DNA of 64,000 nucleotides from assembly GCF_055900595.2 (NCBI RefSeq), contig NZ_CM148325.1. One strand, written 5' to 3'. The notes under the pieces were generated by a model. The model saw only the letters and a program-made list of their open reading frames with translations. It did no database searches and was not told where the DNA came from. Positions 921 to 48,028 of this stretch are shown piece after piece. Position numbers and translations under genes: made by a program. Numbering within the stretch: the first letter of the stretch is position 1; each line of letters begins with the position of its first letter.

Positions 921-2161
921 CGTGAACCTCGTACAAACGCCTGCGCTTTCTCCAGACGCGTTTCATAATCAATACGCAACAGCATCATGATGGCTGTCGA
1001 CATAATAAGTAAGCTCGAACCACCGTAACTGATCAGCGGTAATGTCAGACCTTTGGTCGGTAACATCCCCGCTGCCGCGCCTACGTTAACCAGCGCCTGG
1101 AAACTAAACCAGATGCCAATGGAACAGGCGAGAAAACCGGAAAAACGATGGTCAATTTCTAATGCTTTACGGCCAATCGACATCGCACGAAAAGCGACGA
1201 AGAATACCATTAAAAGTGCCAGCACCACACCGACATACCCCAGTTCTTCGCCGATAATGGCGAAAATAAAGTCAGTGTGTGCTTCCGGCAGATACTCCAG
1301 TTTTTGAACCGAGTTACCTAAACCTTGCCCCCACAGTTCGCCGCGACCAAACGCCATCAGCGATTGCGTTAACTGATAGCCGCTACCAAAGGGATCTTCC
1401 CACGGATTCCAGAATGCGGTAACACGGCGGATACGGTACGGTTCGGCGAGGATCAGTAACACAACCGCTGAAATCCCCATGCCGATAATGGCAATGAACT
1501 GCCACAATTTCGCCCCCGCCAGGAACAACATCGCCAGCGTGGTCACAAACAGCACCACCACCGTACCAAGGTCTGGCTGTGCCAGCAGTAACACTGCCAA
1601 CACCAGAATCACGCCCATCGGTTTCAAGAAGCCGCGCAGGTTATTACGCACTTCGTCGCCTTTACGCACCAGATAGTTGGCGATATAGCAAAACAGCGAC
1701 AGTTTTGTCAGCTCCGCAGGCTGGATACGCAGCAAGCCGAGATCGATCCAACGCGATGCCCCTTTAACAGAGCTACCCACTACCAGAACGATCATCAACA
1801 GGATGATTGAACCGAGTAGCATCGTAGCGCTGTAACGTTGCCAGAACTCCATCGGCAGACGCAGCGTAATGATCGCCAGAATGAACGCCAGGATCAGGTA
1901 GACGCCATCACGCTTAGCGAAGAAAAAGGGATCGTTAGTCAAGCGTTGTCCGATAGGCATTGATGCGGACGTCACCATGATAAAGCCGATCGCCGCGAGG
2001 CCGAAGGTCAGCCACAGTAAGGTGCGATCGTACATGATCAGGCTTTCGGTATCTTTTTCCCGCGAGCCCATCACCCAGCCCTTTAGCGCCGTGGAGATCC
2101 AGACCAGGATACTGAATCCTGGCAGGCGCGGCATTTTCAGGCGAGGGAGAGATAAACGCAT
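917..2161 (-). CDS. ftsW: FtsW, lipid II flippase / SEDS peptidoglycan polymerase
   Basis: ORF-track 415 aa ([22 protein letters not shown]...); second Met gives the 414-aa FtsW length. Polytopic membrane protein in dcw order. Confidence 0.95.
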
Positions 2162-3477
2162 CAACCTAACTCCTTCGCCAGACGGGCAAACTCATTGCCT
2201 CGTTGTTCAAAGTTCTTGAATTGATCAAGGCTGGCACAGGCCGGGGAGAGCAGAACCATATCTCCTGGTTGAACACGCGGAGCCAGCAAGCGCATCGCCT
2301 GTTCCATGGTTTCGGTTTGTTCTGCCACTTCCGGGCGCAGTGCCGCCAGCTGTGCGCCGTCACGACCGAAACAATACAAACGTACGTTATCGCCATTCAG
2401 GTAACGTGCCAGCGGACTAAAGTCCGCCGATTTACCATCGCCGCCCAGCAACAAATGCAGCGTGCCATCTACGTGCAGGCCATTCAGCGCCGCTTCCGTA
2501 CTGCCGACATTGGTCGCTTTCGAGTCGTTAATCCAGCGCACACCGTTATGTTCCAGCACCACTTCAAAGCGATGCGGCAAACCAGTGAACGTAGTTAACG
2601 CTTTCAGGCTACTGGCGCGTGGCAAACCAGCTGCGTCTGCCAGCGCCAGTGCCGCCAGCGCATTGGTGTAGTTATGCTGACCGGAAAGTTTCATCTCTTT
2701 CACGTTCAACACTTTCTCGCCTTTCACCCGCAGCCAGGTTTCACCCTGCTGATGATTCAAGTGATAGTCGCCCATATTGATACCAAAGCTAACGCAGCGT
2801 TCATCCGCACCACGAATCGGCATTGTTAAGGCATCATCAGCATTAACCACGCAAACTTTCGCATTTTCATAAATGCGCAGTTTTGCCGCACGATACTGCT
2901 GTAAACCAAATGGATAGCGATCCATATGATCTTCTGTCACGTTCAGAATGGTCGCTGCCACCGCCTGTAAACTGGAGGTGGTTTCAAGCTGGAAGCTCGA
3001 CAGCTCCAGCACGTACAGTTCGCACTCATCATCCAGCAGCATCAACGCAGGCAGGCCAATATTGCCACCCACACCAACGTTAACCCCCGCCGCTTTCGCC
3101 ATTTCACCCACTAGCGTGGTGACCGTGCTTTTGCCGTTAGAACCGGTAATCGCCACAATCGGTGCTTGTGCTTCGCGACAGAACAGCTCGATATCGCCAA
3201 CGATTTCGATTCCGGCATCAGCGGCAGCGCTTAAGGATGGATGCGCCAGTGCAATACCGGGACTGGCGACAATCAGATCGGCCGCCATCAGCCATTCATC
3301 ATTCAGACCGCCCGTGTGGCGTTCTACGGCTTCGGGTAATTTATCCAGGCCAGGCGGTGTCATACGCGTATCCATAACGCGCGGCGTCACACCGCGAGCG
3401 AGGAAAAAGTCCACGCAAGAAAGCCCGGTGAGGCCCAGGCCGATAATGACGACATTTTTACCCTGGTAATCAGCCAT
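2161..3477 (-). CDS. murD: MurD, UDP-N-acetylmuramoylalanine--D-glutamate ligase
   Basis: 438 aa ORF starting [21 protein letters not shown]; Mur ligase P-loop GSNGKST; position between ftsW and mraY. Confidence 0.96.
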
Positions 3478-19696: not shown

Positions 19697-21713
<2,017 letters not shown>

Positions 21714-21744
21714 TTTGTAAACCGTCCGGCACTCAATCGCCAAA

Positions 21745-21973
21745 AAGAAAAAAGCCAGCAGATAATCACTGCTGGCGTGGCGATTAACACCAATACTCAG
21801 TCACACATGATGTCCGCAAATCAGTAGTCAGAATGACTCCCCTCCCACTGCATCAGCTCTTCAAGCATGGTTAATCGTTGTGGGACGCTTAACCAACGCA
21901 ACCAGCACAACGTCGCTGTCGCGGTAAAATAGTGCTGATAAAACTGACGCATGGGGCACCTCCTTGCTTCATC
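21745..21973 (-). ncRNA. sgrS: SgrS small RNA (sugar-phosphate stress)
   Basis: Minus strand reads GATGAAGCAAGGAGGTGCCCCATGCGTCAG... at the 5' end, contains the conserved seed CATGTGTGACTGAGTATTGGTG (plus-strand 21788-21809), and ends in hairpin GCCAGCAG-TGATTATC-TGCTGGC plus U-run. Divergent from sgrR. Confidence 0.88.
21821..21952 (-). CDS. sgrT: SgrT, small protein encoded within SgrS
   Basis: 43-codon ORF MRQFYQHYFTATATLCWLRWLSVPQRLTMLEELMQWEGSHSDY inside the SgrS transcript, with a GGAGG Shine-Dalgarno upstream. Confidence 0.8.
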   Translation of the reverse strand: MRQFYQHYFTATATLCWLRWLSVPQRLTMLEELMQWEGSHSDY

Positions 21974-22040
21974 GTTAGGAATTATTGACTTAATATAGGG
22001 AAAATAAAATTGCTGACTTTTGCGCAGGAGTTCCCCTTTT

Positions 22041-27118: not shown

Positions 27119-27210
<92 letters not shown>

Positions 27211-35903: not shown

Positions 35904-38810
35904 ATGCCTTTTACACTTGGTCAACGCTGGATCAGCGATACAGAAAGCGAATTGGGACTTGGAACCGTTGTCGCGGTGGATGCGCGAACTGTCACTTTAC
36001 TTTTCCCATCTACTGGTGAAAACCGTCTGTACGCACGCAGTGATTCCCCCGTGACCCGCGTGATGTTCAACCCTGGTGATACTATTACCAGCCACGACGG
36101 CTGGCAGATGCAAGTCGAAGAAGTAAAAGAAGAAAATGGCTTGCTGACCTATATCGGTACTCGCCTGGATACTGAAGAGTCCGGCGTAGCCCTGCGTGAA
36201 GTTTTCCTTGATAGCAAACTGGTGTTCAGCAAACCGCAGGACCGTCTGTTTGCCGGGCAGATTGACCGTATGGACCGCTTTGCGCTGCGTTATCGCGCAC
36301 GTAAATATTCCAGCGAACAGTTCCGTATGCCGTACAGCGGCCTGCGCGGTCAGCGTACCAGTCTGATCCCGCATCAGCTCAACATCGCTCATGATGTTGG
36401 TCGCCGCCATGCGCCGCGCGTCCTGCTGGCTGACGAAGTGGGTTTAGGGAAAACCATTGAAGCCGGGATGATCCTGCATCAGCAACTACTCTCTGGCGCT
36501 GCTGAACGTGTACTGATTATCGTCCCGGAAACCTTACAGCATCAGTGGCTGGTAGAAATGCTGCGCCGCTTCAATCTGCGTTTTGCCCTGTTTGATGACG
36601 AGCGTTACGCCGAAGCTCAGCACGATGCTTACAACCCGTTCGACACCGAACAGCTGGTCATTTGCTCGCTGGATTTTGCCCGTCGTAGCAAACAGCGTCT
36701 GGAACATCTCTGTGAAGCCGAATGGGACCTGCTGGTGGTCGATGAAGCGCATCACCTGGTGTGGAGCGAAGATGCGCCGAGCCGTGAATATCAGGCCATT
36801 GAACAACTGGCAGAGCATGTGCCCGGCGTTCTGCTGCTGACTGCGACCCCGGAACAACTGGGGATGGAAAGCCACTTCGCCCGTCTGCGTCTGCTGGACC
36901 CGAACCGTTTCCACGATTTCGCGCAGTTCGTTGAAGAGCAGAAAAATTATCGTCCGGTAGCAGATGCCGTTGCCATGCTGCTGGCAGGTAACAAACTCAG
37001 CAATGACGAACTGAACATGCTCGGTGAGATGATCGGCGAGCAGGATATTGAGCCGTTACTGCAGGCGGCAAACAGCGACAGCGAAGATGCCCAGAGCGCC
37101 CGTCAGGAACTGGTTTCGATGCTGATGGATCGCCACGGCACTAGCCGCGTGCTGTTCCGTAACACGCGTAACGGTGTGAAAGGCTTCCCGAAACGCGAGC
37201 TGCACACTATTAAGCTGCCGCTGCCGACGCAGTATCAGACGGCGATTAAAGTGTCCGGCATTATGGGCGCACGTAAAAGTGCGGAAGATCGCGCTCGCGA
37301 TATGCTCTACCCGGAGCGTATTTATCAGGAATTTGAAGGCGATAACGCCACCTGGTGGAACTTCGACCCGCGCGTTGAGTGGCTGATGGGTTACCTGACC
37401 AGCCATCGCTCTCAGAAAGTGCTGGTGATCTGCGCTAAAGCCGCTACCGCGCTGCAACTGGAGCAGGTACTGCGTGAGCGTGAAGGTATCCGCGCCGCGG
37501 TGTTCCACGAAGGCATGTCGATTATTGAGCGTGACCGCGCTGCGGCATGGTTTGCCGAAGAAGACACCGGCGCGCAGGTGCTGCTGTGTTCGGAAATTGG
37601 TTCTGAAGGGCGTAACTTCCAGTTCGCCAGCCACATGGTAATGTTCGATCTGCCGTTCAACCCGGATCTGCTGGAGCAGCGTATTGGTCGTCTGGATCGT
37701 ATCGGTCAGGCGCACGATATTCAGATCCATGTGCCTTATCTGGAAAAAACCGCTCAGTCGGTACTGGTACGCTGGTATCACGAAGGTCTGGATGCATTCG
37801 AGCACACCTGCCCGACCGGACGCACTATCTACGATAGCGTGTATAACGATCTGATTAACTACCTGGCCTCACCGGATCAAACCGAAGGCTTTGACGATCT
37901 GATCAAAAACTGCCGCGAGCAGCACGAGGCGTTGAAGGCACAGCTGGAACAGGGTCGTGACCGCCTGCTGGAGATCCATTCCAACGGTGGCGAAAAAGCG
38001 CAGGCATTAGCTGAAAGCATTGAAGAGCAGGATGACGATACCAACCTGATCGCCTTCGCCATGAACCTGTTCGATATTATCGGTATCAATCAGGACGATC
38101 GCGGCGACAACATGATCGTACTGACGCCGTCCGATCATATGCTGGTGCCGGACTTCCCGGGCCTGTCGGAAGATGGCATCACCATCACCTTCGACCGTGA
38201 GGTAGCGCTGGCGCGTGAAGATGCGCAGTTTATTACCTGGGAGCACCCACTGATCCGCAACGGTCTGGATCTGATCCTCTCTGGCGATACCGGTAGCAGC
38301 ACGATTTCACTGTTGAAAAACAAAGCGTTGCCGGTAGGTACGCTGTTGGTGGAACTGATTTATGTCGTTGAAGCCCAGGCTCCGAAGCAGTTGCAGCTCA
38401 ACCGCTTCCTGCCGCCGACGCCGGTACGTATGCTGCTGGATAAAAATGGCAACAACCTGGCGGCGCAGGTGGAGTTTGAAACCTTTAACCGTCAGCTTAA
38501 CGCGGTTAACCGCCACACTGGCAGCAAGCTGGTTAATGCCGTGCAGCAGGATGTTCACGCTATCCTTCAGCTGGGTGAAGCGCAGATCGAGAAATCTGCC
38601 CGTGCATTGATTGATGCAGCACGTAACGAAGCCGACGAAAAACTGTCTGCCGAGCTGTCTCGTCTGGAAGCGCTGCGCGCAGTGAACCCGAACATTCGTG
38701 ACGACGAACTGACCGCCATTGAGAGCAACCGTCAGCAGGTAATGGAAAGCCTGGATCAGGCAGGCTGGCGTCTGGATGCCCTGCGTTTGATCGTTGTGAC
38801 GCATCAGTAA
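35904..38810 (+). CDS. rapA: RapA (HepA), RNA polymerase-associated Swi2/Snf2 ATPase
   Basis: 968 aa [33 protein letters not shown]...; helicase motifs [10 protein letters not shown] and DEAH. Confidence 0.96.
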
Positions 38811-38821
38811 CGGAGCCAAAA

Positions 38822-39481
38822 ATGGGGATGGAAAACTACAATCCACCGCAGGAACCCTGGCTGGTTATCCTGTATCAGGATGACCACATTATGGTGGTCA
38901 ACAAGCCGAGCGGTTTGTTGTCTGTGCCGGGGCGTCTGGAGGAGCACAAAGACAGCGTGATGACACGCATTCAGCGTGATTATCCTCAGGCGGAATCGGT
39001 GCATCGTCTGGATATGGCTACCAGCGGCGTGATTGTAGTGGCGCTGACCAAAGCCGCGGAGCGGGAATTAAAACGCCAGTTCCGCGAGCGCGAGCCGAAA
39101 AAGCAATATGTGGCCCGCGTCTGGGGGCATCCATCCCCTGCGGAAGGTCTGGTAGATCTGCCGCTGATTTGCGACTGGCCAAACCGCCCGAAACAGAAAG
39201 TCTGTTACGAAACGGGTAAACCTGCGCAGACGGAATATGAAGTGGTGGAATATGCGGCAGATAATACGGCAAGAGTGGTGTTAAAACCGATTACCGGGCG
39301 TTCGCATCAATTGCGTGTGCATATGCTGGCGCTGGGTCATCCGATTCTCGGCGATCGTTTTTATGCATCACCAGAAGCCAGGGCAATGGCACCACGTTTA
39401 CTGCTACATGCAGAGATGTTGACGATTACCCATCCGGCATATGGCAATAGTATGACGTTTAAGGCACCCGCGGATTTTTAA
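38822..39481 (+). CDS. rluA: RluA, 23S rRNA / tRNA pseudouridine synthase
   Basis: 219 aa ORF MGMENYNPPQEPWLVILYQDDHIMVVNKPSGLLSVPG...HRLDMATSGVIV... (catalytic Asp motif). Confidence 0.95.
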   Translation: MGMENYNPPQEPWLVILYQDDHIMVVNKPSGLLSVPGRLEEHKDSVMTRIQRDYPQAESVHRLDMATSGVIVVALTKAAERELKRQFREREPKKQYVARVWGHPSPAEGLVDLPLICDWPNRPKQKVCYETGKPAQTEYEVVEYAADNTARVVLKPITGRSHQLRVHMLALGHPILGDRFYASPEARAMAPRLLLHAEMLTITHPAYGNSMTFKAPADF

Positions 39482-39494
39482 TAGTCTCGCTAGC

Positions 39495-39585
39495 GCGATT
39501 AGGTAGGCCGGATAAGGCGTTCACGCCGCATCCGGCAATTTGTGCCGCCGGATGCGGCGTGAACGCCTTATCCGGCCTACAATTT
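39495..39585. repeat. REP/BIME: inverted pair of REP palindromes
   Basis: GGTAGGCCGGATAAGGCGTTCACGCCGCATCCGGCA ... TGCCGCCGGATGCGGCGTGAACGCCTTATCCGGCCTAC fills the whole gap between the convergent rluA and djlA. Confidence 0.85.
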
Positions 39586-39590
39586 GAAAC

Positions 39591-40406
39591 TTATTTAAAC
39601 CCTTTCTGCTGCTTTATCAGCTCATAGGCTTGCTGAATTTCCTGCGCTTTCTGCTTCGCCATCTCCATCATCTCAGGCGGCAAACCTTTTGCTACCAGCT
39701 TATCCGGATGGTGTTCACTCATCAGCTTACGGTAGGCACGTTTGATGGTGGTCGCATCATCCGTCGGCTTCACGCCCAGCACATTACAGGCATCTTCCAG
39801 CGTCGGGCCACGCTGCGCTTGCTGCCAGTTACCACCGCCAGATTGCTGCTGATAACCGCCGCCAAACTGTGCACCGCCCTGCATCATGCGCAAAAACTGG
39901 TCAAACTGGGCGCGGGAGATGCCTAACTCTTCGGCAATGACATACAGCACCGCCCGTTCATTCGGATGCAGCGAACCATCAGCAAACGCCGCCTGAATCT
40001 GGATCTCCAGAAACATACGAATTAAGTCAAAACGACCAAAGCAGACACTGCGAAACTGGCGCATCTTTTCGCGCAGCGGGTAATTGTCTGATTTTCCAAC
40101 CCGGAACGCATTTTGCGCCGCAGTACGGGAAGCACCATGAAGGTTCATTCGGTCCATCAACTGGCTGGCGATATGAATATCAGCCTCCGTGACGCGACCT
40201 TTGGATTTGGTTAAATGCCCCATCACTTCAAAAGTGGTGGCAAAAAACAGCGCCTGACGCTCACGCTGGTTGGCGAACCACGCCATTTTACGGCTACGGG
40301 CTTTATCAAACATATGGCCAATTAACAGGCCTAACACTACGCCCCAAAAGCCGCCGCCCATCAGTAAGGCCACGGCCACGCCAATGATTTTTCCCCAATA
40401 CTGCAT
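39591..40406 (-). CDS. djlA: DjlA, membrane-anchored DnaJ-like co-chaperone
   Basis: ORF-track frame N-extended by 15 codons; start [33 protein letters not shown] gives 271 aa, with a C-terminal J-domain (HPD). Confidence 0.94.
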
Positions 40407-40660
40407 ATATTCCCCAAATCGACACACGGATATCAGGGCTATCTCCCACAATATAAAGGTGCTTTTACCGTTTTCCGGCTGCGGTCAATTGTGGGACATC
40501 GCCTATAATTTGCATTATCATACCTGTCATTCAATGCCGTGCCTAACACCACTGACGCTATTCGGACAGGATTAACACTAGCGTAGAGATGACGAGTACG
40601 TTAGTCTCTGACCGTTTGTCACGCGCAACGTTACCGATGATGGAACAATAAAATCAACGT

Positions 40661-43015
40661 ATGAAAAAACGTATCCCCACTCTCCTGGCCACCATGATTG
40701 CCACCGCCCTTTATAGTCAACAGGGACTGGCAGCCGACCTCGCCTCACAGTGCATGTTGGGCGTGCCAAGCTATGATCGTCCTCTGGTACAGGGCGATAC
40801 CAATGACTTACCCGTGACTATCAATGCTGACCACGCGAAAGGGGACTACCCGGATGACGCCGTGTTTACTGGCAGCGTGGATATCATGCAGGGTAACAGC
40901 CGTCTGCAGGCCGACGAAGTGCAGCTCCATCAAAAAGAGGCACCAGGACAACCGGAGCCAGTACGTACCGTTGATGCGCTCGGTAATGTCCATTACGACG
41001 ATAACCAGGTGATCCTCAAAGGGCCGAAAGGCTGGGCGAACCTGAACACCAAAGATACCAACGTCTGGGAAGGTGATTACCAGATGGTGGGTCGCCAGGG
41101 TCGCGGTAAAGCGGACCTGATGAAACAACGTGGCGAAAACCGCTATACCATTCTGGATAACGGTAGCTTTACCTCCTGTCTGCCGGGTTCCGACACCTGG
41201 AGCGTAGTAGGTAGCGAAATTATTCATGACCGCGAAGAACAAGTTGCGGAAATCTGGAACGCCCGCTTTAAAGTGGGTCCGGTACCGATCTTTTATAGCC
41301 CGTATTTGCAGTTGCCGGTGGGTGACAAACGTCGTTCTGGTTTCTTGATCCCGAACGCCAAGTACACCACCACCAACTACTTTGAGTTCTACCTGCCATA
41401 TTACTGGAACATTGCGCCAAATATGGATGCCACCATCACGCCGCATTATATGCATCGTCGTGGCAACATCATGTGGGAGAACGAATTCCGCTACCTCTCC
41501 CAGGCGGGCGCAGGTTTGATGGAACTGGACTATCTGCCTTCCGATAAAGTCTATGAAGATGAACACCCGAACGATGACAGTTCACGTCGTTGGTTGTTCT
41601 ACTGGCAACACTCCGGGGTCATGGATCAGGTGTGGCGTTTCAACGTCGACTACACCAAGGTGAGCGATCCTAGCTACTTCAATGATTTTGATAACAAGTA
41701 CGGTTCCAGTACTGACGGCTACGCAACGCAAAAATTCAGCGTTGGCTATGCGGTGCAAAACTTCAATGCCACCGTTTCAACCAAGCAGTTCCAGGTCTTC
41801 AGCGAGCAGAACACCAGTAGCTACTCGGCAGAGCCGCAGTTAGACGTTAACTACTACCAGAATGATGTTGGTCCGTTTGATACACGCATTTACGGCCAGG
41901 CAGTACACTTTGTTAACACCAGAGACGACATGCCTGAAGCAACCCGTGTTCACCTGGAACCGACCATCAATTTGCCGCTCTCTAATAACTGGGGCAGCAT
42001 CAATACCGAAGCGAAGTTGCTGGCAACCCATTATCAGCAAACTAATCTTGACTGGTATAACTCCAGAAACACAACCAAGCTGGACGAATCCGTTAACCGT
42101 GTGATGCCGCAATTCAAAGTTGACGGCAAAATGGTCTTTGAACGCGATATGGAAATGCTGGCTCCGGGTTATACCCAAACGCTGGAACCGCGCGCGCAGT
42201 ATTTATACGTGCCGTATCGCGATCAGAGCGACATCTATAACTACGACTCGTCTCTGCTGCAATCTGACTACTCTGGCCTGTTCCGGGACCGGACTTACGG
42301 CGGTCTTGACCGTATTGCCTCCGCTAACCAGGTGACGACCGGTGTCACATCTCGCATATATGATGATGCTGCCGTTGAACGTTTTAATATTTCCGTTGGT
42401 CAAATCTACTATTTCACGGAGTCTCGCACTGGCGATGACAACATAACATGGGAGAATGACGACAAAACGGGCTCACTGGTATGGGCAGGCGATACCTACT
42501 GGCGTATCTCCGAGCGCTGGGGGTTGCGTGGCGGGATTCAGTACGACACGCGTCTGGATAACGTAGCCACCAGTAACTCCAGCATTGAATACCGTCGGGA
42601 TGAAGACCGTCTGGTGCAGTTGAACTACCGTTACGCCAGCCCGGAATATATTCAGGCTACGCTGCCTAAGTACTATTCCACGGCAGAGCAGTATAAGAAT
42701 GGTATTTCGCAGGTAGGTGCCGTCGCCAGCTGGCCAATTGCCGATCGTTGGTCAATTGTCGGGGCCTACTACTACGACACCAATGCGAACAAGCAAGCCG
42801 ACTCTATGTTAGGTGTGCAATATAGCTCCTGCTGCTATGCGATTCGCGTCGGTTACGAGCGGAAGCTGAACGGTTGGGATAACGATAAACAACATGCGGT
42901 ATATGACAACGCAATCGGCTTTAACATCGAACTTCGCGGCCTGAGCTCCAACTACGGTCTGGGTACGCAAGAGATGCTGCGTTCGAACATTCTGCCGTAT
43001 CAAAACACTTTGTGA
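40661..43015 (+). CDS. lptD: LptD (Imp/OstA), outer-membrane LPS assembly protein
   Basis: 784 aa [46 protein letters not shown]... with signal peptide. Confidence 0.96.
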
Positions 43016-46547: not shown

Positions 46548-47396
46548 ATGGCGACATACCTTATTGGCGACGTTCATGGTTGTTACGATGAACTGATCGC
46601 ATTGCTGCATAAAGTAGAATTTACCCCTGGGAAAGATACCCTCTGGCTGACAGGCGATCTGGTTGCGCGCGGACCGGGTTCGCTGGATGTTCTGCGCTAT
46701 GTGAAATCCTTAGGCGACAGCGTACGTCTGGTGCTGGGCAATCACGATCTGCATCTGCTGGCGGTATTCGCCGGGATCAGCCGCAATAAACCGAAAGATC
46801 GCCTGACACCGCTGCTGGAAGCGCCGGATGCCGACGAGCTGCTTAACTGGCTGCGTCGCCAGCCTTTGCTGCAAATCGACGAAGAGAAAAAGCTGGTAAT
46901 GGCCCACGCAGGGATCACGCCGCAGTGGGATCTGCAGACCGCCAAAGAGTGCGCACGCGATGTAGAAGCGGTGCTGTCGAGTGACTCCTATCCCTTCTTT
47001 CTCGACGCTATGTACGGCGATATGCCAAATAACTGGTCACCGGAATTGCGGGGGTTGGGAAGACTGCGTTTTATCACCAACGCCTTTACCCGTATGCGTT
47101 TTTGCTTCCCGAACGGTCAACTGGATATGTACAGCAAAGAATCGCCGGAAGAAGCCCCTGCCCCACTGAAACCGTGGTTTGCGATTCCTGGCCCTGTCGC
47201 TGAAGAGTACAGCATCGCCTTTGGTCACTGGGCATCGCTGGAGGGCAAAGGTACGCCGGAAGGTATTTACGCGCTGGATACTGGCTGCTGTTGGGGCGGG
47301 ACATTAACCTGCCTGCGCTGGGAAGATAAACAGTATTTTGTCCAGCCGTCGAACCGGCATAAGGATTTGGGTGAGGGAGAGGCGGTCGCGTCTTAA
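46548..47396 (+). CDS. apaH: ApaH, diadenosine tetraphosphatase (symmetrical)
   Basis: 282 aa [46 protein letters not shown]... (metallophosphatase motifs), ending ...[10 protein letters not shown]. Stop overlaps the ccdB stop on the opposite strand. Confidence 0.95.
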
Positions 47397-47707
47397 ATCC
47401 CGTCGAGCATAAAATCTAATGCTCCTTTAATCAAAGTTCGGTGCGCGCTGGCATCGCAAAATTTCGTTCCCAGCGTGTTAACTGGAACAGTTGCAGTCTC
47501 ATGCGTCATGAGCACATATTCTTTGCCGTCTACCAGTAAAAGGATTGGGTTAAGCCGTTCTGGTGGGCGAATATGGCTAAATCGTTCAATAGGTGTTAAT
47601 GGATTAACGATACGGCGATTAATCTCACCAATAATGTCGCTGGTAACATCGATAACAAAGGGCAACGCGGCGTTCCTGCCGCGACTGCGGTATACCGTAA
47701 ATTGCAT
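47393..47707 (-). CDS. ccdB: CcdB-family toxin (gyrase poison), chromosomal homologue
   Basis: 104 aa [44 protein letters not shown]...ATVPVNTLG...DFMLDGI. Shares the MQF-VY N-terminus, FVDV-SDII block, VPV and terminal GI with F-plasmid CcdB as I recall it. Sits 2 nt downstream of a CcdA-like ORF in antitoxin-toxin order. Confidence 0.85.
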
Positions 47708-47709
47708 CG

Positions 47710-47943
47710 CTAGAAGTTCCGGTACTCATCAGAGAAACATCCGGTTTCATCAGCCAATTGATTTAACGCAGCGATAGCTTCTGCATTCTCTTCACGCCAA
47801 CGTGTTGCTGCATGTTTTTTAAGTTCAGCATTGAGCGCAACCGTAAGGGTGGCGCTCATATTTAAGCCTGCATCACGAGCGCGATTGACTAACTCACGGT
47901 CGACGGTGACGGTCACACTTTGTGTGGTACGTTTTGCAGTCAT
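47710..47943 (-). CDS. ccdA: CcdA-family antitoxin, chromosomal homologue
   Basis: 77 aa ORF MTAKRTTQSVTVTVDRELVNRARDAGLNMSATL...RWREENAEAIAALNQLADETGCFSDEYRNF. Resembles F-plasmid CcdA (TVTVD N-terminal ribbon region; RW-EN ... F-DE-R-F C-terminus). Good Shine-Dalgarno (CAGGAGCACGATATCATG). Confidence 0.85.
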   Translation of the reverse strand: MTAKRTTQSVTVTVDRELVNRARDAGLNMSATLTVALNAELKKHAATRWREENAEAIAALNQLADETGCFSDEYRNF

Positions 47944-48028
47944 GATATCGTGCTCCTGTACAATTTATACGTCTTGTATACACGGATATCTGCACGTATC
48001 AGTGATGCCGGAATTCTGATATACAAAC
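47944..48028 (-). promoter_or_regulatory. Putative ccdAB promoter/operator
   Basis: The 85-bp folA-ccdA spacer contains clustered GTATAC-like elements (TGTACA, TTATACG, TGTATACA, CGTATCA, GATATACA), resembling the short palindromic operator repeats of plasmid ccd operons. Confidence 0.5.

What the first reader, a model, noticed from the sequence alone, without database searches (positions are those of the whole stretch)
39482..39590. rluA and djlA are separated only by a BIME; no yabP/yabQ
The convergent rluA and djlA stops are 109 bp apart, and the gap is filled by an inverted pair of REP palindromes. In K-12 as I recall it, this position carries about 1.5 kb with the yabP/yabQ (pseudo)genes. 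Together with the setA and ccd differences this suggests a non-K-12 lineage, with the BIME possibly marking an ancestral insertion/deletion hotspot.
Basis: partly seen in the sequence, partly recalled or inferred. Interest (0 to 1): 0.3.

Follow-up and report, generated by a model that had tools for sequence, protein, structure and literature searches.

The report
Ancestral REP pair between rluA and djlA
The short, hairpin-filled gap between rluA and djlA is the common and ancestral Escherichia arrangement, and it is K-12 that carries a later 1.5-kb insertion (a decayed virulence-effector gene), so the finding is real but ordinary.

Summary
The rluA and djlA stop codons are 109 bp apart (39482-39590). 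The gap holds two inverted Y-type REPs (39503-39536 and 39547-39580) that are 34/34 complementary.

K-12 MG1655 has 1507 bp there with yabP/yabQ. These two ORFs are a frameshifted copy of espY1, a type III secretion effector gene, next to an IS4/Tn5 transposase remnant.

Among 5426 complete E. coli genomes, 3180 have the short REP-type spacer and 2080 have the espY1/yabPQ islet.

E. albertii and a second, more divergent Escherichia genome carry a homologous REP spacer. No other Enterobacterales genome examined has espY1 at this site. The short form is therefore ancestral and the K-12 form is derived.

The two forms share no intergenic sequence. The breakpoints sit at the two stop codons.

The most likely role of the REP pair is a shared two-way 3'-end hairpin (RNA stabiliser and partial terminator) for the convergent transcripts. 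Other genera have a plain bidirectional terminator at this position.

The window's exact allele is rare (8 genomes). It differs from its nearest relative only in the centre of the right REP, which now exactly complements the left REP. This looks like quasipalindrome correction or gene conversion.

Interest is low.

The parts
38822..39481 (+). rluA (pseudouridine synthase), last gene of the rapA-rluA pair; stop TAA at 39479-39481
   Evidence: ORF list. RefSeq annotation of the 99.67%-identical strain Z0117EC0005.
39482..39502 (.). 21-nt linker between the rluA stop and the left REP; homologous to the same linker in other E. coli and in E. albertii
   Evidence: Alignment A1.
39503..39536 (-). 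Left REP, Y type (read on the - strand: GCCGGATGCGGCGTGAACGCCTTATCCGGCCTAC)
   Evidence: Y consensus taken from PMC11208160.
39537..39546 (.). 10-nt spacer AATTTGTGCC between the two REPs (15 nt in the majority allele)
39547..39580 (+). Right REP, Y type, the exact reverse complement of the left REP. It is Z2 type in the majority allele and a Y-stem/Z2-centre hybrid in the nearest 112-bp allele.
39503..39580 (.). The REP doublet (BIME/REPIN-like) as a whole: a 78-bp palindrome that folds as one 34-36-bp hairpin in the RNA of either strand. Positions 39506-39577 match Rfam RF02564 (naRNA4) above the gathering score on both strands.
   Evidence: Fold energies of -84.3 and -84.0 kcal/mol, z -11.3 and -14.4. 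Rfam 70.9 and 70.7 bits against a gathering score of 59.5.
39581..39590 (.). 10-nt linker between the right REP and the djlA stop codon
39591..40406 (-). djlA (DnaJ-like co-chaperone), convergent with rluA. Its stop is TAA here and in other BIME alleles, but TGA in islet alleles.

Best explanation
The 109-bp gap is a rare sequence variant of the ancestral Escherichia spacer between the convergent genes rluA and djlA. It is a doublet of inverted REP elements (a BIME). Shown: the REP spacer is present in 59% of complete E. coli genomes, and homologous spacers occur in E. albertii and in a second, more divergent Escherichia genome. The K-12 arrangement (38% of genomes) is a derived 1.45-1.55-kb islet that replaced the whole spacer, from stop codon to stop codon. 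The islet carries espY1, a type III secretion effector with pentapeptide repeats. espY1 is intact in O157 and split by a frameshift into yabP + yabQ in K-12. The islet also carries an IS4/Tn5-family transposase fragment. Inferred mechanism: the REP doublet is transcribed at the 3' end of both convergent transcripts, and in either RNA it forms a very stable hairpin. That hairpin would block 3'-to-5' exonucleases and partly stop read-through into the opposing gene. This is the job done by a simple A-run/hairpin/U-run bidirectional terminator at the same position in Enterobacter and Cedecea, and by two separate hairpins in the islet allele. Also inferred: the window's perfectly symmetric Y-Y allele arose in place from a Y/hybrid allele. 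A short conversion of the right REP centre to the complement of the left REP would do this, by a quasipalindrome template switch or by short-tract gene conversion.
For: Anatomy. K-12 state. yabP is 87.5% identical to EspY1 residues 1-192, and yabQ matches residues 202-244. RefSeq annotates espY1 and the transposase fragment at this site in several strains. EspY1 is ECs0061 of O157 Sakai (PMC4269881). Census: 3180 genomes with the short form and 2080 with the islet. Breakpoints at the stop codons, with no shared intergenic sequence. Outgroups: E. albertii has a 169-bp homologous REP spacer, a second Escherichia genome has 149 bp, the other Enterobacterales spacers read out are 30-170 bp apart from 483 bp in Pluralibacter and 837 bp in Superficieibacter, and none has espY1. 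Hairpin strength. Terminator hairpins in the outgroups and in the islet allele. A 2026 preprint reports REPs in 207 of 704 convergent gene pairs. It reports a dual terminator/stabiliser role for REP325 in the tandem yjdMN operon and proposes a bidirectional one for REPs between convergent genes (bioRxiv 10.64898/2026.03.23.713779). In-place conversion: the 112-bp allele is identical to the window spacer except that GCGCGGGCCGCGTC becomes GCGTGAACGCC. A similar tract appears on the unrelated 116-bp background, giving the 113-bp allele. The exact doublet is found in only 8 genomes and only at this locus. Quasipalindrome template switching is documented in E. coli (PMC7202029).
Against: No expression data were available, so 3'-end formation and stabilisation are inferred from position and structure. 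There is no U-tract after the hairpin on either strand, and the consensus scan finds no intrinsic terminator. Any termination would therefore be non-canonical or Rho-assisted. The islet replaced the BIME in 38% of genomes without obvious harm, so the REPs themselves are dispensable provided some hairpin is present. The converted tract equals both the complement of the left REP and the general Y consensus, so ectopic gene conversion from another Y REP cannot be told apart from a local template switch. The ancestral-state inference rests on two Escherichia outgroups. E. fergusonii and Salmonella were not among the 80 loci returned.
Confidence: 0.8

Rival explanations
1. The window's lineage once carried yabP/yabQ (espY1) and lost it by deletion, with the BIME left as or marking the deletion scar.
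For: The site is clearly variable: there are several length alleles and an IS621 insertion. The islet carries a transposase remnant.
Against: E. albertii and a second Escherichia genome have a homologous REP spacer with the same flanking linkers, and no outgroup has espY1 here. Islet alleles keep no REP at either edge, so a deletion could not regenerate the BIME. No islet remnant exists in the window.
Confidence: 0.04
2. The REP doublet is a selfish or neutral passenger (a REPIN maintained by the RAYT transposase) sitting in a permissive gap between convergent genes, with no role in rluA or djlA expression.
For: Different genera carry different repeat elements, or none, in this gap. REP number varies among Escherichia. 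The whole BIME is replaced in 38% of genomes.
Against: Every lineage examined keeps some strong hairpin directly after both stop codons. The preprint reports higher expression of convergent pairs that have a REP. The exact doublet is not dispersed. This reading is compatible with the element also acting as a 3'-end hairpin.
Confidence: 0.3
3. The element is a nucleoid-associated RNA gene (naRNA4 type) that works with HU to bridge cruciforms and condense the chromosome.
For: Rfam RF02564 naRNA4 matches at 70.9 bits, above the 59.5 gathering score, on both strands. The original naRNA4 report is PMC4550694.
Against: The Rfam model is in effect a Y+Z2 REP unit, so any BIME of this kind matches it; all alleles at this locus do. 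[quoted passage not shown] The window allele folds as one long hairpin, not the two hairpins said to be needed.
Confidence: 0.05
4. The 10-nt distance between the djlA stop codon and the REP stem makes terminating ribosomes stall, lowering DjlA output. The BIME and islet alleles would then differ in DjlA dosage.
For: The stem base lies 10 nt from the djlA stop in all BIME alleles. In the islet allele the first strong hairpin is about 36 nt away. REPs within about 15 nt of a stop codon are reported to reduce translation through ribosome stalling and tmRNA (Liang, Rudd and Deutscher 2015, recalled from memory, not retrieved; one search did not find it).
Against: No data for djlA. This is an add-on to the main explanation, not a replacement for it.
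Confidence: 0.2

Closest known systems
BIME / REP doublets of E. coli (Y, Z1, Z2 REPs; also described as REPINs)
   Same: Each arm is a 34-nt imperfect palindrome with the GTAG/CTAC end, one base off the published Y sequence. The two copies are inverted, extragenic and lie in the 3' region of convergent genes. The family is dispersed, with about 40 or more matching places per genome.
   Different: Classical BIMEs pair a Y with a Z1 or Z2 REP (recalled classification; REP325 is Y+Z2). The window allele is Y-Y with perfectly complementary arms, so it forms one 34-bp hairpin instead of two small ones. The majority allele at this locus is the ordinary Y+Z2 form.
REP325 / naRNA4 (Rfam RF02564)
   Same: The match is above the Rfam gathering score. 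Like REP325, it lies in a 3'UTR, where a dual terminator/stabiliser role has been reported.
   Different: It is a single unit, not six tandem units. It lies between convergent genes rather than inside an operon. Its second REP is Y type, not Z2. Its expression has not been tested.
Bidirectional intrinsic terminators between convergent genes
   Same: The position and the implied job are the same. In Enterobacter cloacae and Cedecea neteri the whole rluA-djlA spacer is a 30-32-nt A-run/hairpin/U-run element.
   Different: There are no flanking A or U tracts in the window. The hairpin is far longer and belongs to a mobile repeat family.
espY1 (ECs0061) / yabP-yabQ islet of O157 and K-12
   Same: It occupies exactly the same chromosomal slot, from stop codon to stop codon.
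   Different: It is absent from the window and shares no sequence with the BIME allele.

Membership tests
REP (repetitive extragenic palindrome), Y type | An imperfect palindrome of about 35 nt that matches the Y consensus, with a GTAG/CTAC tetranucleotide at one end | tested here: met
   Both arms read GCCGGATGCGGCGTGAACGCCTTATCCGGCCTAC. This is one mismatch from the Y string given in PMC11208160.
REP (repetitive extragenic palindrome), Y type | Extragenic and dispersed in many copies in the genome | tested here: met
   It lies between two stop codons. Related genomes reach the 40-piece reporting limit. There are two further Y-like copies in the window, at 27120 and 59151.
BIME (bacterial interspersed mosaic element) | Two or more REPs in alternating orientation separated by short linker motifs | tested here: met
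   Inverted arms with a 10-nt linker.
BIME (bacterial interspersed mosaic element) | Alternation of a Y REP with a Z1 or Z2 REP | tested here: not met
   Both REPs of the window allele are Y type. The majority 116-bp allele has Y+Z2 and the 112-bp allele has a Y-stem/Z2-centre hybrid. The window allele is an atypical BIME derived from a typical one.
REPIN / RAYT system | A cognate RAYT (tnpA-REP) gene in the genome, and copies of the same doublet at many loci | tested here: not met
   The exact 86-bp doublet occurs only at this locus, in 8 genomes. Elsewhere the best matches are two-piece matches at about 88% identity. Presence of a RAYT gene could not be tested, because the source genome is not searchable as a whole.
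Rfam RF02564 naRNA4 | Covariance-model score at or above the gathering threshold | tested here: met
   70.9 and 70.7 bits against 59.5.
Rfam RF02564 naRNA4 | Expressed RNA with two separate hairpins that binds HU | not testable with these tools
   The predicted fold is one long hairpin, not two. No expression or binding data are available.
Rho-independent terminator | G+C-rich hairpin immediately followed by a U tract | tested here: not met
   The hairpin is present, but no terminator-like site was found on either strand in 39300-39800.
espY1 / yabPQ islet | Sequence similar to espY1 or to the K-12 1507-bp spacer | tested here: not met
   tblastn and blastn of the islet and its proteins against the window gave only chance-level hits.
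IS621 natural target site | The 11-nt target ATCAGGCCTAC in a REP | tested here: not met
   Both REPs of the window read ATCCGGCCTAC, one mismatch from the target. The Z2 REP of the majority allele has the exact target and is occupied by IS621 in strain PEC403.

The most novel reading that the evidence does not exclude
The series of alleles at this locus runs from Y+Z2 (116 bp) through Y + Y-stem/Z2-centre (112 bp) to a perfect Y-Y (109 bp). A similar centre conversion appears independently on the 116-bp background, giving the 113-bp allele. This series may record recurrent hairpin-templated (quasipalindrome) correction that turns one REP type into the mirror image of its neighbour. If so, it would be a transposase-independent route by which REP pairs are homogenised and REP types switch. 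As a by-product it removes the IS621 target and creates a much stronger two-way RNA hairpin.
Probability: 0.3. Interest if true: 0.35.

Novelty: already known. Interest (0 to 1): 0.12.

Why it matters
It matters little beyond bookkeeping. The result corrects the direction of the inferred event: K-12 gained an effector islet, and this lineage did not lose one. It shows that K-12's yabP/yabQ are the wreck of the type III effector gene espY1. It also gives one more example of convergent-gene gaps acting as safe landing sites for repeats, insertion sequences and small islets. The small allelic series of REP conversions could serve as a natural example for people who study how REP families stay homogeneous.

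Tried and rejected
1. I searched the window for yabP, yabQ, EspY1 and islet DNA. Only chance-level hits came back. The whole source genome could not be searched with these tools.

2. NCBIfam has no model for EspY1. Pfam gives only a marginal pentapeptide-repeat match.

3. The consensus terminator scan found nothing in the window spacer. It also missed the obvious E. cloacae terminator, so I folded the spacers directly instead.

4. I considered the Rfam naRNA4 match as a lead to a specific sRNA gene and rejected it as a distinct identity. The model is a generic Y+Z2 REP unit, and every allele at this locus matches it.

5. The microRNA-family matches are below their gathering scores. They only reflect a long hairpin.

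6. An assembly artefact (a collapsed or invented palindrome) is ruled out, because eight independent complete assemblies carry the identical allele.

7. A naive position-by-position comparison of the window with strain Z0117EC0005 failed because of two indels. BLAST gives 99.67% identity over 43 kb.

8. A paper search for the report on REPs close to stop codons did not retrieve it. That point is marked as recalled from memory.

Full report
**1. The observation**

In the window, rluA is the ORF 38822-39481 on the + strand. djlA ends at 39591 on the - strand. RefSeq annotates the CDS as 39591-40406 in a 99.67%-identical genome. The stop-to-stop gap is therefore 39482-39590, 109 bp.

The repeat finder reports a 34-nt, 100% complementary inverted repeat at 39503-39536 / 39547-39580, with 10 nt between the arms. 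Each arm is itself an imperfect palindrome. Both arms read GCCGGATGCGGCGTGAACGCCTTATCCGGCCTAC. That is one base from the Y-type REP sequence quoted in PMC11208160. A search for this string finds 4 matches at up to 3 mismatches in the window, against 0.00 expected from shuffles.

**2. The K-12 comparison**

In NC_000913.3 the same two stop codons are 1507 bp apart, with yabP (b0056) and yabQ (b0057) annotated between them.

YabP is 87.5% identical to residues 1-192 of the protein RefSeq calls "T3SS effector EspY1" at this position in O157-like strains. YabQ matches residues 202-244. The break falls in the pentapeptide-repeat stretch. So yabP/yabQ are one frameshifted espY1.

EspY1 is ECs0061 of O157 Sakai, one of the type III effectors screened for host partners (PMC4269881). 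The islet also carries a frameshifted fragment of an IS4/Tn5-family transposase.

**3. How the two forms relate**

The two spacers share no sequence.
- Homology stops immediately after the rluA TAA.
- It resumes inside the djlA stop codon, which is TAA in REP-type alleles and TGA in islet alleles.
- No REP is left at either edge of the islet.

The islet brings its own hairpins. A canonical terminator, AAATCCCCGAGTCCGGGGATTTTTT, lies about 50 nt after rluA. A G+C-rich hairpin lies after djlA.

**4. Census**

| Query | Result among 5426 complete E. coli genomes |
|---|---|
| 409 bp spanning the gap | 3180 genomes cover at least 80% in one place (short REP-type spacer) |
| K-12 1507-bp spacer | 2080 genomes cover at least 80% (islet) |
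| Neither query covered at 80% | 166 genomes by subtraction; these were not examined one by one |

IS-interrupted forms would fall outside both classes. One example is strain PEC403. There IS621 sits in the Z2 REP exactly at ATCAGGCCT^AC, which is the natural IS621 target (PMC11208160).

Lacking yabP/yabQ is thus the majority state.

**5. Polarity**

A scan of one genome per species with RluA returned 80 loci. rluA and djlA are convergent neighbours across the Enterobacterales, and none of the loci has espY1.

| Genome | Spacer | Content |
|---|---|---|
| E. albertii | 169 bp | REP spacer with the same left linker, the same left Y REP and the same right linker as E. coli |
| Second Escherichia genome (labelled E. 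coli, more divergent linkers) | 149 bp | Homologous REP spacer |
| Enterobacter cloacae, E. asburiae, Cedecea neteri | 30-32 nt | The whole spacer is an A-run/hairpin/U-run element, -18 to -21 kcal/mol for the two that were folded |

The REP spacer is therefore ancestral in Escherichia, and the islet is a later replacement. The window's lineage did not lose yabPQ. K-12's ancestors gained espY1.

**6. The window's own allele**

The exact 409-bp and 86-bp sequences occur in 8 genomes only, always at this locus. The alleles compare as follows.

| Allele | Right REP | Relation to the others |
|---|---|---|
| 116 bp (majority) | Z2 type, GCCTGATGCGACGCGGGCCGCGTCTTATCAGGCCTAC | Left REP is Y type |
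| 112 bp (strains 2020CK-00188, N96) | Y-type stems with a Z2-type centre | In 2020CK-00188, identical to the window spacer except in the centre of the right REP |
| 109 bp (window) | Y type, the exact complement of the left REP | GCGCGGGCCGCGTC of the 112-bp allele has become GCGTGAACGCC |
| 113 bp (strain 41) | Z2 stems with a converted centre | A similar centre conversion on the otherwise unchanged 116-bp background |

A clustered multi-base change that perfects an inverted repeat is the signature of quasipalindrome template switching, which is documented in E. coli (PMC7202029). Short-tract gene conversion from another Y REP would give the same product and cannot be excluded.

Because the doublet is not found elsewhere, transposition of a ready-made doublet is unlikely.

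The change has two consequences.
- The RNA of either strand now folds as one 34-36-bp hairpin: -84 kcal/mol, z -11 to -14. The majority allele forms two small hairpins on the + strand: -60 kcal/mol, z -3.8.
- The IS621 target is lost, because both REPs now read ATCCGGCCTAC.

**7. Likely function**

Nothing here measures expression, so the function is inferred.

The element lies in the 3' region of both convergent transcripts, 21 nt after the rluA stop and 10 nt after the djlA stop. It forms a very stable hairpin in both RNAs. It occupies the slot where relatives have a bidirectional terminator. A 2026 preprint finds REPs in 207 of 704 convergent gene pairs. It reports a combined partial-terminator and mRNA-stabiliser role for REP325 in the tandem yjdMN operon, proposes a bidirectional version of that role for REPs between convergent genes, and finds higher expression of such pairs.

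I take that as the most likely role. There is no U tract, so termination, if any, is non-canonical.

The Rfam naRNA4 match (70.9 bits against 59.5) only restates that this is a Y/Z2-type REP unit. The chromosome-condensing role first proposed for naRNA4 (PMC4550694) is contradicted by the same preprint.

A possible extra effect is ribosome stalling at the djlA stop, because the stem starts 10 nt downstream. This rests on a paper I recall but could not retrieve.

**8. Verdict**

The finding is a real feature and is correctly described. It is an ordinary member of a well-known repeat family in its ancestral place. The contrast with K-12 is explained by a known effector pseudogene islet. The only mildly interesting residue is the small allelic series of REP-to-REP conversions.

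Noticed in passing
L003 (NZ_CM168009.1, strain PEC403) 1682-3077: IS621 (IS110 family, bridge-RNA recombinase) is inserted in the Z2 REP of the rluA-djlA BIME. The junctions read ...ATCAGGCCT|TGTATTATCC... and ...ACAGTATCT|ACACGTTGAAAC. The left-hand junction falls inside the published natural target ATCAGGCCTAC. The window allele has ATCCGGCCTAC in both REPs and so lacks the exact target.
   Followed up: partly
L001 (K-12) 1681-3187; L002, L007, L008 islets: The espY1/yabPQ islet is much more diverged among E. coli than its flanks: the K-12 and O157 forms are about 94.6% identical, and 1508 genomes fall in the 90-95% band. Its length varies (1433-1553 bp), and in K-12 the frameshift falls in the pentapeptide-repeat region. 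This suggests an old polymorphism, or fast evolution or decay of the effector gene.
   Followed up: partly
L011, L018, L020 (Citrobacter); L012, L014, L019 (Pseudocitrobacter, Kluyvera, RIT691); L025 (Superficieibacter); L029 (Pluralibacter): rluA-djlA spacers: Almost every genus has a different repeat in this gap. Citrobacter has a conserved 172-bp spacer with an ERIC-like palindrome. Pseudocitrobacter, Kluyvera and RIT691 have GCCCTCTCCC...GGGAGAGGG-type palindromes. Superficieibacter has an 837-bp tandem array of such units. Pluralibacter has a 483-bp spacer bounded by Tn5-like ends (CTGTCTCTTAGTCACAC ... GTGTATAAGAGACAG), which looks like a MITE. The convergent gap seems to be a general safe harbour.
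   Followed up: partly
L092 (NZ_CP187760.1, strain CUVET24-CCU22) 1-653: In this strain the 3' part of rluA appears to be partly duplicated. RefSeq annotates two partial pseudouridine synthase pseudogenes upstream of a normal djlA.
   Followed up: no
window about 47390-47945 (from L004 29394-29944): A chromosomal ccdB/ccdA toxin-antitoxin pair lies between apaH and folA, according to the RefSeq annotation of the 99.67%-identical strain.
   Followed up: no
window about 21100-21975: leuD is followed almost directly by sgrS/sgrT (Rfam SgrS at 21747-21973 on the - strand). No setA gene is annotated between them in the near-identical strain.
   Followed up: no
window 38000-41000: Only 16 of the chromosome records are at least 99% identical over this 3 kb, and most E. 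coli are about 96.7% identical. The window therefore comes from a sparsely sampled lineage. Its closest relatives are the dog isolate Z0117EC0005 and seven human isolates. The phylogroup was not determined.
   Followed up: partly
L001 (K-12) 1681-1738, which is positions 1450-1507 of the query (the djlA-proximal end of the islet): This 58-bp piece of the islet matches at about 91% identity at a second, unannotated place in many genomes; the rows listed for it show only that match and no islet. It was not examined further.
   Followed up: no
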